A stretch of 64,000 nt of DNA, taken from positions 64,001 to 128,000 of the IMG/VR virus record IMGVR_UViG_3300033076_000375, one strand, 5' to 3'. Under the pieces are notes generated by a model. That model saw only the letters and a program-made list of their open reading frames with translations. It was not told the origin of the DNA and did not search any database. The position numbers were made by a program, and so were the translations under genes. The DNA comes from a virus. Taxonomy: Duplodnaviria > Caudoviricetes. Below are positions 17,734-18,785 of the stretch, piece by piece (within the stretch, counting starts at the first letter, position 1; every line of letters starts with the position of its first letter).

Positions 17734-17910
17734 TTAGAAGAAAGGTAATTGAGAATTCTTAGTGGTTTCTAAGTTATCCTCAATAATCTTACTAATGGCT
17801 TTTCGTTCTTCAATAGATAGGTTTAGTATATCTGTGTAGCTAATACCGCCGCGCATGAACCAAGACATTTTAAGACTATCATTCTTAATGTCTATGCAAT
17901 CTTTCTCCAT
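17734..17910 (-). CDS. Small gp51-like baseplate/tail assembly ORF; probably the -1 frameshift extension of the gp26-like gene
   Basis: MEKDCIDIKNDSLKMSWFMRGGISYTDILNLSIEERKAISKIIEDNLETTKNSQLPFF* (58 aa, below the ORF-track cutoff). The frame is open back to the slippery site at 17964-17970. Confidence 0.7.
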   Translation of the reverse strand: MEKDCIDIKNDSLKMSWFMRGGISYTDILNLSIEERKAISKIIEDNLETTKNSQLPFF

Positions 17911-17920
17911 TGCATCTAAC

Positions 17921-17970
17921 AGCTTCTTAATTCCCTCGGAGTCAAGGGAAAGAAGCCTTAATCGAAAAAA
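17921..17970 (-). promoter_or_regulatory. Putative -1 programmed ribosomal frameshift signal (T TTT TTC plus a 3' stem-loop)
   Basis: In-frame heptamer T_TTT_TTC two codons before the stop, a 6-7 nt spacer, then the hairpin GCTTCTT-TCCCTTG-ACTC-CGAGGGA-ATT-AAGAAGC. Confidence 0.7.
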
Positions 17971-18785
17971 TCGGAAACGTTAATGCTAAATTGTTGCTCG
18001 TAATCATGTTGGCAACTTACGCATTTGATTTTCAATGGTTTAGATTCAGTGCTTTGTTTCAACTTGATACTATGATTCTTAATCAAATCAAACGCAGTAA
18101 CATCAATGTTATTCAAAAACTCAACGATGTATGTTTTGTCTATTACGGTTGCTGTTGGTGTTTTGACGTACTCAATACTCTCCGCAATCATTTGGATAGA
18201 TATTGCATTTAGTTCGAGTAAAATTTGTTTGGATTTTTGATTACGTTCGTCATCGTCAGTGACTAATCTCAATCCTTGAATCGCTTTTTGAAACTGGAAC
18301 TGTTTTACACTAGTATCGTTAACAAGTTTAAACGTCAATGGTTTAAACTTGATTTTTATGTTTTCACCCAAACTTAGTGGAGTATCATAGTCACCTTGTG
18401 TAAAGGAACTTAGAATACCTGACAAGTTAATAGTGTACGTTGATGTCTCCTCACATTTTGGACAAACTGAACTTAGTTCCATTGTTCCACCGTGTGTTGC
18501 TGTCTTGATTGCCACTAAGATTGGGTCTAAGTCAACGTTTGATACAATCCAAGGATCTTTGATGTTCGGGGCGCAACTTTTAATAATCTCAACAACTGCG
18601 GTTCCATTAAACAATGCGTCCGGTGTACGTGCTGTGATTTCATCAATCGCAGTCATTGGATAGATTGGGATTTCACCGTTCTCTGGTAAATCTAATGAAC
18701 CTTCTGGATAACCAGCACCACCTGACGGTAGTTTCAAGTAGACTGATGGACGACGGAAATATTGCTGTAATGGATTTTGTTGCAT
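17958..18785 (-). CDS. gp26: Baseplate hub assembly chaperone, T4 gp26-like
   Basis: Motifs LPSGG..Y, P MTA.DE, D...ILVAIK.AT.G and two CxxC pairs (CPKC, CVSC). Ends in DFF. Confidence 0.7.
   Translation of the reverse strand: MQQNPLQQYFRRPSVYLKLPSGGAGYPEGSLDLPENGEIPIYPMTAIDEITARTPDALFNGTAVVEIIKSCAPNIKDPWIVSNVDLDPILVAIKTATHGGTMELSSVCPKCEETSTYTINLSGILSSFTQGDYDTPLSLGENIKIKFKPLTFKLVNDTSVKQFQFQKAIQGLRLVTDDDERNQKSKQILLELNAISIQMIAESIEYVKTPTATVIDKTYIVEFLNNIDVTAFDLIKNHSIKLKQSTESKPLKIKCVSCQHDYEQQFSINVSDFFD

What the first reader, a model, noticed from the sequence alone, without database searches (positions are those of the whole stretch)
17734..17975. Probable -1 programmed frameshift fusing gp26-like and gp51-like ORFs (a G/GT-type chaperone pair in a T4-like phage)
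Seen: the gp26-like gene ends GAT TTT TTC GAT TAA, an in-frame X XXY YYZ heptamer (T TTT TTC, 17970-17964). About 6-7 nt further 3' lies a strong hairpin (GCTTCTT-TCCCTTG-ACTC-CGAGGGA-ATT-AAGAAGC, 17957-17921). The -1 frame stays open for 77 codons (FRLRLLSLDSEGIKKLLDAMEKD...QLPFF*), and its first ATG has no well-spaced Shine-Dalgarno. The predicted products are 275 aa and about 350 aa. Established: lambda gpG/gpGT-type tail-assembly chaperones use this arrangement next to the tape-measure gene. Here the pair is adjacent to, but divergent from, the tape-measure-like gene. Inference: gp26/gp51-like proteins of this lineage are frameshift-linked tape-measure chaperones, which I have not seen described for T4-like phages.
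Basis: partly seen in the sequence, partly recalled or inferred. Interest (0 to 1): 0.8.

Follow-up and report, generated by a model that had tools for sequence, protein, structure and literature searches.

The report
Frameshift in T4-like baseplate-hub chaperone gene
One tail-baseplate assembly gene of this uncultured giant T4-related phage very probably makes a 275-residue and a 350-residue protein, because some ribosomes slip back one base on an invariant TTTTTTC; phage T4 makes the matching pair from two separate paralogous genes, 26 and 51.

Summary
The gp26-like gene (Pfam PF12322) ends GAT TTT TTC GAT TAA. A hairpin starts 6 nt after the heptamer, and the -1 frame stays open for 76 codons.

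It is not chance. All 95 related loci and five further T4-like phages (S-PM2, P-SSM2, HTVC008M, phiM12, KVP40) keep an in-phase T TTT TTC/T at the same Phe-Phe motif, followed by a 57-79-codon -1 tail. The first possible start codon in that tail wanders from codon 1 to 36; PA5oct has none. The base before the heptamer is T in 83 of 83 sequences, across seven different amino acids. The hairpin region is far more stable than synonymous recodings.

T4 gp26 and gp51 are both PF12322 proteins. The -1 tail is homologous to the C-terminal tail of gp51, which T4 carries in frame. Phages with the slip site have one PF12322 gene; T4 has two.

The tape-measure-chaperone role is inferred only: no similarity to known tail assembly chaperones was found.

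I found no paper reporting the slip; a 2016 review names T4 as the exception to G/GT frameshifting. This scan has noted the same signal on other DNA (at least 128 genomes).

The parts
17958..18785 (-). gp26-like baseplate-hub assembly gene, zero frame, 275 aa (short product)
   Evidence: PF12322 T4_baseplate at 74.3 bits (cut-off 24.5) and phrog_150 'baseplate hub' at E 2.6e-21. AGGAG lies 9 nt before the ATG. AlphaFold2 gives pLDDT 92. C108, C111, C255 and C258 are conserved.
17964..17970 (-). slippery heptamer T TTT TTC in X XXY YYZ phase, encoding the conserved Phe-Phe motif
   Evidence: Invariant in 73 distinct aligned junctions. Present in 95 of 95 loci as TTTTTTC (93) or TTTTTTT (2). The preceding wobble base is T in 83 of 83 sequences, across GAT, AAT, AGT, CAT, GCT, ACT and CGT.
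17958..17960 (-). zero-frame stop TAA, one codon after the heptamer
   Evidence: In relatives the stop lies 1-10 codons after the heptamer.
17921..17957 (-). stem-loop 6 nt downstream of the heptamer; probable frameshift stimulator
   Evidence: Fold of the 70 nt after the heptamer is -26 kcal/mol. Across 73 sequences 74.5% of cells pair, against 37-52% when slid; the covariation score is 0.242 against 0.085-0.146, with 0 of 500 shuffles as high. Mean z is -3.2 against synonymous recodings.
17734..17964 (-). -1 frame extension: 76 codons plus stop, the gp51-tail-like domain. It joins after Phe274 to give the 350-aa long product.
   Evidence: 87 of 95 relatives have exactly 76 codons. The conserved RxRLLxLxPExI motif lies upstream of any start codon in most loci. 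hhalign to gp51 tails gives Prob 92%, E 7e-7. AlphaFold2 shows a helical domain, pLDDT 85.
18838..18845 (-). TATAAATA box (T4 late-promoter consensus) 52 nt upstream of the gp26-like start
   Evidence: Read directly from the sequence. Function not tested.
18856..21204 (+). divergently transcribed 782-aa tape-measure-like gene (context, not part of the recoding signal)
   Evidence: The same divergent neighbour is present in PA5oct (virion protein by MS), 121Q, RaK2 (record note: similar to a tape measure), GAP32 and SCTP-2. ESM Atlas features are nearest tape-measure clusters at 0.91, a lead only. There is no Pfam or PHROG hit.

Best explanation
This is a programmed -1 ribosomal frameshift. Most ribosomes translating the gp26-like gene stop at TAA one codon after the Phe-Phe motif and release a 275-aa protein. 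A fraction pause over the hairpin 6 nt downstream and slip back one base on U UUU UUC. The two tRNA-Phe re-pair with UUU UUU, and translation continues for 76 codons to give a 350-aa protein whose tail matches the C-terminal tail of T4 gp51. One gene thus supplies, in a ratio fixed by the RNA signal, the short and long forms that T4 encodes as two paralogous genes, 26 and 51. In T4 both are non-structural factors required to assemble the baseplate hub.

Shown here: the signal, its conservation, the coding signature of the -1 frame across the stop codon, and the homologies.

Inferred: that slippage actually occurs, and at what rate. Also inferred is that the pair works like lambda gpG/gpGT, with the shared body on the tape measure or hub and the tail recruiting a second partner.
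For: 1. Slip-site conservation.
- 95 of 95 loci at 25-85% protein identity keep an in-phase T TTT TTC/T at the FF motif. These include Atu_ph07, Phosso, Xoo-sp13, XacN1, PA5oct, 121Q, RaK2, GAP32, SCTP-2 and 85 IMG/VR loci.
- S-PM2, P-SSM2, HTVC008M, phiM12 and KVP40 also keep it.

2. Nucleotide-level constraint.
- The wobble base before the heptamer is T in 83 of 83 sequences, across 7 amino acids.
- The two Phe codons are always TTT and then TTC/T, although Phe is 59% TTT elsewhere.
- Neighbouring third positions are only 41-80% conserved.

3. The -1 frame is coding before any start codon.
- All 120 closest proteins end FF plus one residue drawn only from G/A/D/E/V. That is codon GNN, which reads CGN (Arg) in the -1 frame.
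- The first ATG/GTG/TTG in the tail ranges from codon 1 to codon 36. PA5oct has none and no annotated ORF there; RaK2's first is at codon 30.
- RxRLL..PEEI is conserved upstream of these starts.

4. The hairpin is selected at synonymous sites.

5. Link to T4.
- T4 gp26 and gp51 are both PF12322.
- T4 has two such genes. PA5oct, 121Q, Atu_ph07, RaK2, S-PM2, P-SSM2, HTVC008M, phiM12, KVP40 and this record have one.
- The -1 tails of cyanophages and KVP40 match the in-frame gp51 tails at Prob 97%, E 2e-11, starting right at the shift site. This window's type of tail matches at Prob 92%, E 7e-7.
- The conceptual fusion is colinear with gp51.
Against: - There is no experimental evidence for the 350-aa product in any phage.
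- In some relatives (Atu_ph07, Phosso, KVP40, cyanophages) an ATG lies 1-4 codons into the -1 frame. Independent or coupled initiation could therefore also express the tail there, as current annotations assume.
- A profile of the tail found nothing in the T4 genome by HMM search. The link to gp51 rests on profile-profile comparison.
- U UUU UUC efficiency in the unknown host is not known.
- Nothing ties the protein to known tail assembly chaperones by sequence or fold.
Confidence: 0.88

Rival explanations
1. Two ordinary genes. The small gp51-like ORF is translated on its own, from the ATG at 17910 or by termination-reinitiation coupling. The T-run is only the codon choice for a conserved Phe-Phe motif.
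For: KVP40, S-PM2, P-SSM2, 121Q, GAP32, XacN1, SCTP-2 and Phosso annotate a separate small ORF. Several relatives have an ATG overlapping or just after the stop.
Against: - PA5oct has no ATG/GTG/TTG anywhere in the 73-codon tail. In 23 of 95 loci the first start is at codon 30-36 of 76, inside the conserved WYMRGG motif.
- Residues upstream of the starts are conserved.
- The GNN/CGN signature spans the stop codon.
- The T before the heptamer and the TTT-TTC choice are invariant.
- The window's ATG lacks a Shine-Dalgarno and sits behind the hairpin.
- T4 carries the tail fused in frame to a PF12322 body.
Confidence: 0.06
2. Transcriptional slippage. RNA polymerase adds one extra U on the run of six T, giving mRNAs that encode the same 350-aa fusion without any ribosomal event.
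For: The slip site is a homopolymer run: T6 here, T7-T8 in phiM12 and HTVC008M. A one-base insertion gives exactly the same protein sequence.
Against: - By general knowledge of polymerase slippage, six T is short for an efficient event.
- 98% of sites end in C rather than lengthening the run.
- A selected hairpin at the canonical 6-nt spacing downstream is the hallmark of ribosomal -1 frameshifting. Polymerase slippage does not call for it.
Confidence: 0.05
3. Sequencing or assembly error. The real gene is one uninterrupted 350-codon ORF.
For: Homopolymer runs are error-prone in some sequencing chemistries.
Against: The same frame break at the same base occurs in about 100 independent assemblies, including finished genomes of cultured phages from many laboratories. 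None of 270 listed homologues is an in-frame ~350-aa form.
Confidence: 0.01

Closest known systems
Phage T4 gp26 (208 aa) and gp51 (249 aa), hub assembly chaperones (Leiman et al. 2010, PMC3004832, Table 2)
   Same: The protein family is the same: PF12322 and phrog_150. The short form ends just after the Phe-Phe motif (T4 gp26 ends ...EFFELL). The long form carries a homologous C-terminal tail. In T4 both are needed to build the hub, and gp51 is absent from the particle.
   Different: T4 uses two divergently transcribed paralogous genes and has no slip site; gene 26 reads TTC TTT. Here one gene with a -1 frameshift supplies both forms. The tail here is about 25 residues longer.
Lambda gpG/gpGT and the conserved -1 frameshift of tail assembly chaperone genes in long-tailed phages (Xu, Hendrix & Duda 2004; reviewed in Atkins et al. 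2016, PMC5009743)
   Same: The recoding logic is the same. A heptamer sits near the end of a non-structural assembly gene, and a -1 tail of 60-80 residues is added to a minority of chains. The gene lies next to a tape-measure-like gene. In KVP40 the order is tube-like gene, 26, '51', large ORF.
   Different: There is no detectable sequence or fold similarity to known chaperones. The protein is larger (275 aa) and has two CxxC knuckles. In this window it is divergent from, not upstream of, the tape-measure-like gene. Binding partners are unknown. The review states that G-T frameshifting is conserved 'except T4'.
Small 'gp51 baseplate hub assembly catalyst' ORFs annotated after gp26 in KVP40, S-PM2 and P-SSM2 (phrog_634)
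   Same: The position and the -1 phase after a PF12322 gene are the same, and so are the heptamer and the tail family.
   Different: Those records treat it as an independent 55-57-aa gene starting at an ATG. Here, and in PA5oct and RaK2, no usable start exists at that position.

Membership tests
Pfam PF12322 T4_baseplate (T4 gp26/gp51 family) | Match to the family profile above the curated cut-off | tested here: met
   74.3 bits against a cut-off of 24.5, residues 33-274 on profile positions 9-218 of 219. phrog_150 at E 2.6e-21. T4 gp26 and gp51 hit the same models.
Pfam PF12322 T4_baseplate (T4 gp26/gp51 family) | Two conserved CxxC knuckles and a C-terminal Phe-Phe motif | tested here: met
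   C108, C255, C258, F273 and F274 are invariant and C111 nearly so in 28 diverse sequences. T4 gp26 has CTCG and CPECG and ends EFFELL.
Canonical programmed -1 ribosomal frameshift cassette | X XXY YYZ heptamer in the zero-frame phase, conserved among homologues | tested here: met
   T TTT TTC at 17970-17964. Present in 95 of 95 loci plus 5 further T4-like phages. Background frequency is 0.5% per codon.
Canonical programmed -1 ribosomal frameshift cassette | Stimulatory RNA structure 5-9 nt downstream | tested here: met
   The hairpin starts 6 nt downstream. 74.5% of cells pair against 37-52% when slid. Mean z is -3.2 against synonymous recoding, and the region is in the top 5% of own-gene windows in 50 of 73 sequences. 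The register of the inner stem varies, and RNAalifold gave no single consensus.
Canonical programmed -1 ribosomal frameshift cassette | -1 frame open and under protein-coding selection from the slip site onward, independent of a start codon | tested here: met
Canonical programmed -1 ribosomal frameshift cassette | Frameshift product demonstrated experimentally | not testable with these tools
   No proteomic or reporter data are available. The PA5oct paper does not mention a frameshift.
Lambda G/GT-type tail assembly chaperone | Homology in sequence or fold to known tail assembly chaperone families | tested here: inconclusive
   There is no Pfam or PHROG chaperone hit. Fold searches of both models returned only generic helical matches, Z below 8.
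Lambda G/GT-type tail assembly chaperone | Gene placed between the tube gene and the tape-measure gene | tested here: inconclusive
   In this window the gene is adjacent to but divergent from a tape-measure-like 782-aa gene. KVP40 has the order tube-like gene, 26, '51', 656-aa ORF. PF25671 is too narrow to identify tape measures outside T-even phages.
Lambda G/GT-type tail assembly chaperone | Short form binds the tape measure, the tail of the long form binds the tube protein, and neither is in the virion | not testable with these tools
In T4, gp51 is absent from the particle.
T4 gp51 (long paralogue) | PF12322 body followed by the gp51-type C-terminal tail | tested here: met
   This holds only for the conceptual frameshift product. 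Tail against tail gives Prob 92%, E 7e-7. Fusion against gp51 is colinear over 14-347 and 4-257, E 6.6e-4. HMM search of the T4 genome with the tail profile found nothing.

The most novel reading that the evidence does not exclude
The gp26/gp51 system is the long-missing G/GT equivalent of T4-like phages. Under this reading, a -1 frameshift is ancestral to the whole T4 superfamily, from cyanophages and pelagiphages through KVP40 to giant phages. It sets the ratio of a short chaperone to a long one for the tape measure and hub. T-even phages are then a derived lineage that replaced recoding by gene duplication. That would make T4 gp26 and gp51 functional counterparts of gpG and gpGT, built on an unrelated, zinc-knuckle-bearing fold.
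Probability: 0.45. Interest if true: 0.85.

Novelty: new variant of a known kind. Interest (0 to 1): 0.78.

Why it matters
- Reviews list T4 as the one exception to the tail-chaperone frameshift conserved in long-tailed phages (PMC5009743). This finding suggests that most of the T4 superfamily does frameshift, and that T4 proper replaced the device with a duplicated gene.
- It gives a concrete and testable meaning to two of the least understood T4 morphogenesis genes, 26 and 51.
- It would correct the annotation of hundreds of phage genomes, where the tail is called a separate 'gp51', a hypothetical ORF, or nothing at all.
- It offers a natural example of recoding and gene duplication as interchangeable ways to make a short and a long form of one protein.

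Tried and rejected
- DNA search of the junction against the phage collection found no match.
- RNAalifold on 65 junctions gave no consensus structure, because the register of the inner stem differs between sequences. A fixed-register count and per-sequence tests were used instead.
- Foldseek and VIA-align searches of the 275-aa model, and VIA-align of the 76-aa tail model, gave only generic helical matches. Nothing can be said about fold kinship with tail assembly chaperones.
- BLASTP of the tail against T4 gp51 gave a weak hit inside the gp51 body (E 0.003). I judge it spurious, because the profile comparisons place the homology in the gp51 tail.
- hhalign of the tail profile against single-sequence gp51 was not significant. 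HMM search of the T4 genome with the tail profile found nothing.
- BLASTP of the 782-aa neighbour against T4 gp29, a PDB sequence search, and PF25671 searches were all negative or uninformative.
- Seven literature searches found no report of a gp26/gp51 frameshift.

Full report
WHAT IS THERE

The minus strand at 17958-18785 encodes a 275-aa protein. It matches Pfam PF12322 (T4_baseplate, 74.3 bits, cut-off 24.5) and phrog_150 'baseplate hub'. It ends ...AAC GTT TCC GAT TTT TTC GAT TAA, so 17970-17964 is T TTT TTC in X XXY YYZ phase, one codon before the stop.

The 70 nt after the heptamer fold at -26 kcal/mol.

The -1 frame entered from the heptamer reads RLRLLSLDSEGIKKLLDAMEKD... for 76 codons, up to the stop at 17734-17736. 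Its first ATG/GTG/TTG is codon 19 (17910). That ATG has no properly spaced Shine-Dalgarno and follows directly on the 3' arm of the hairpin. The gp26-like start, by contrast, has AGGAG 9 nt upstream. The products would be 275 and 350 aa.

CONTEXT

The surrounding genes mark a distant T4-type phage:
- late sigma factor;
- gp46/47-like nuclease;
- a PDDEXK resolvase;
- a T4-type portal;
- a TATAAATA box 52 nt upstream of the gp26-like start.

The record is a 186-kb IMG/VR fragment, estimated 49% complete. The closest named relatives of the gp26-like protein, at 25-30% identity, are the giant phages PA5oct, 121Q/PBECO4, RaK2, GAP32, CBB, XacN1, Atu_ph07, Phosso and SCTP-2. About 2,400 metagenomic homologues exist.

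IS THE SIGNAL CONSERVED?

Yes, without exception in my sample. tblastn with the -1 tail alone hit Atu_ph07, Phosso and Xoo-sp13 directly behind their 'baseplate hub' genes. The match started at the first residue after the slip site.

I then examined 95 loci: 13 from named phages and close IMG/VR relatives, and 80 more IMG/VR loci at 44-68% identity. The results:
- 93 carry T TTT TTC and 2 carry T TTT TTT, always in phase, at the conserved Phe-Phe motif.
- The zero-frame stop follows 1-10 codons later.
- The -1 frame continues for 70-79 codons, and for exactly 76 codons in 87 loci. The one exception (L062) is cut off by the end of its contig.
- The -1 frame is closed a few codons upstream of the heptamer.

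In-phase heptamers of this form occupy only 0.5% of other codon positions in the same genes.

SIGNATURES THAT ARGUE FOR FRAMESHIFTING OVER A SEPARATE SMALL GENE

(a) Start codons. The first possible start in the tail lies anywhere from codon 1 to codon 36. In 23 loci it is at codon 30-36, inside the conserved WYMRGG motif. PA5oct has no ATG, GTG or TTG in its whole 73-codon tail, and its record annotates nothing there. RaK2's first start is at codon 30. Yet the N-terminal RxRLLxLxPExI... is among the best conserved parts of the tail.

(b) The last zero-frame codon. All 120 closest proteins end FF plus one residue, and that residue is only G, A, D, E or V. This is codon GNN. In the -1 frame it reads CGN (Arg), with the variable base at the wobble position. 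Selection is therefore acting on the -1 frame across the zero-frame stop.

(c) The heptamer itself. The base before TTT TTC is T in 83 of 83 distinct sequences, although the codon encodes seven different amino acids (GAT, AAT, AGT, CAT, GCT, ACT, CGT). The two Phe codons are fixed as TTT then TTC/T, while Phe is 59% TTT elsewhere. Third positions of neighbouring codons are 41-80% conserved.

(d) Fused forms. No in-frame ~350-aa form appears among 270 listed homologues. An assembly error is therefore excluded.

THE HAIRPIN

In an ungapped alignment of 73 distinct junctions, columns 1-8 (TTTTTTCG) are invariant.

For a 13-pair helix starting 6 nt after the heptamer:
- 74.5% of cells pair, against 37-52% when the 3' arm is slid by 1-3 columns;
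- the covariation score is 0.242, against 0.085-0.146 when slid;
- 0 of 500 shuffles reach the observed values;
- the inner pairs change on both sides in 12-26 sequences.

The register of the inner stem differs between sequences, which is why RNAalifold gave no consensus.

Sequence by sequence, the 48 nt after the heptamer are much more stable than versions recoded synonymously in the -1 frame. The mean z is -3.2, and 82% of sequences fall below -1.64. In 50 of 73 sequences the region is among the 5% most stable windows of its own genes. More distant phages have different hairpins at about the same place: Atu_ph07, Phosso, P-SSM2 and S-PM2.

THE LINK TO T4

T4 gp26 (208 aa) and gp51 (249 aa) both match PF12322 over its full length, at E 9e-64 and 4e-52. 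They also match phrog_150: gp26 stops at profile position 235 of 282 and gp51 runs to 280. They are paralogues, and gp51 is the longer one.

T4 gene 26 ends GAG TTC TTT GAG TTA CTA TAA. The Phe-Phe motif is kept but is not slippery, and gene 25 follows it.

T4 has two PF12322 genes. PA5oct, 121Q, Atu_ph07, RaK2, this record, S-PM2, P-SSM2, HTVC008M, phiM12 and KVP40 have one each.

Each of the last five phages again has an in-phase T TTT TTC/T at the Phe-Phe motif and a 57-63-codon -1 tail. KVP40, S-PM2 and P-SSM2 annotate that tail as a separate small 'gp51 baseplate hub assembly catalyst'. The KVP40 note reads: similar to 40 residues at the C-terminus of T4 gp51.

Profile-profile comparison gives:
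- these -1 tails against the in-frame tails of nine Straboviridae gp51 proteins: Prob 97%, E 2e-11, aligned from the residue at the shift site;
- the tail type of this window against all tails: Prob 92%, E 7e-7;
- the conceptual fusion against gp51: colinear over nearly the full length.

So the termination product corresponds to gp26 and the frameshift product to gp51. T-even phages, RB49, RB16, 44RR and the Acinetobacter T4-like phage MD-2021a carry a full-length in-frame gp51; T4 was confirmed to hold two PF12322 genes. KVP40 and everything more distant use the slip site.

FUNCTION

In T4, gp26 and gp51 are listed as hub assembly chaperones, and gp51 is required for assembly but absent from the particle (PMC3004832). 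One GenBank record (Acinetobacter phage Octan) labels its gp51 homologue 'tape measure protein assembly chaperone'.

In this window and in the giant phages, the gene is divergently paired with a 720-800-aa gene. That gene's product is a virion protein in PA5oct, and the RaK2 record notes it as tape-measure-like.

For the window's 782-aa protein, language-model features are nearest to tape-measure clusters (score 0.91), and the Atlas's structure search matches residues about 566-698 to M15 peptidase domains. This is a lead only. H626, D633, H673 and H675 are invariant among 13 homologues.

KVP40 has the lambda-like order: tube-like gene, 26, '51', large ORF.

Against membership in the G/GT family, I found no sequence similarity to known tail assembly chaperones and no fold match. 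Binding could not be tested. 'Works like G/GT' is therefore a reasonable inference, at about even odds. It is not a demonstrated fact, and I do not file the protein as a member of that family.

RIVALS

- Independent translation of the small ORF remains possible as an additional route in phages with an ATG at codons 1-4. It cannot explain PA5oct, RaK2 or this window.
- Transcriptional slippage on the T-run would yield the same protein. It does not call for the selected downstream hairpin, nor for the preference for C at position 7.
- Assembly error is excluded by roughly 100 independent assemblies.

NOVELTY

Seven full-text searches found no report of this frameshift. The PA5oct omics paper does not mention it. 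The recoding review by Atkins et al. [quoted passage not shown]

This scan's own notes show the same signal reported independently in at least 128 other genomes, with the same reading. I reached my reading before consulting them. From them I took only the 'except T4' lead, which I then verified in the paper.

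Noticed in passing
window 18838-18845 (-): TATAAATA, the T4 late-promoter consensus, lies 52 nt upstream of the gp26-like start in the 70-nt divergent intergenic region.
   Followed up: no
window 18856-21204 (+): The 782-aa tape-measure-like protein more likely starts at ATG 18856 than at the TTG 18847 listed. 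It has invariant H626, D633, H673 and H675. The Atlas structure search matches residues about 566-698 to M15 (VanY/LAS-type) peptidase domains, which suggests a cell-wall hydrolase embedded in the tape measure. Only 12 homologues were found, so it evolves fast.
   Followed up: partly
P0001 residues 50-117; T4 gp26 residues 114-196 (L009 4803-5429 -): hhalign aligned the N-terminal half of the jumbo-phage protein with the C-terminal half of T4 gp26 (E 1.4e-4), each half ending in a CxxC knuckle. PF12322 may be an internal duplication.
   Followed up: no
L010 1743-1961 (PA5oct, NC_071039 about 77662-77862): A 73-codon conserved open frame without any start codon lies in a stretch that the PA5oct record leaves unannotated. 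In 121Q and GAP32 the annotated small ORFs (phrog_18291, 'unknown function') are N-terminally truncated versions of the same tail.
   Followed up: partly
proteins P0144 (...ANFLD), P0193 (...NFVKK), P0223 (...NFS): A few distant homologues lack the FF ending. These may be variant slip sites (for example T TTT TTA or an A-run) or sequencing errors.
   Followed up: no
L115 (RB16) 151-1014: In RB16 the paralogues are arranged 54-51-26 on one strand with overlapping ends, unlike the divergent 26/51 pair of T4. The duplicated pair has been rearranged within Straboviridae.
   Followed up: no
window 17201-17680: Downstream of the tail's stop lie GCGAAGC-capped mini-hairpins and a roughly 350-nt structured region. 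Other notes of this scan describe it as a conserved non-coding RNA. The frameshift unit ends at a convergence of two transcription units.
   Followed up: no
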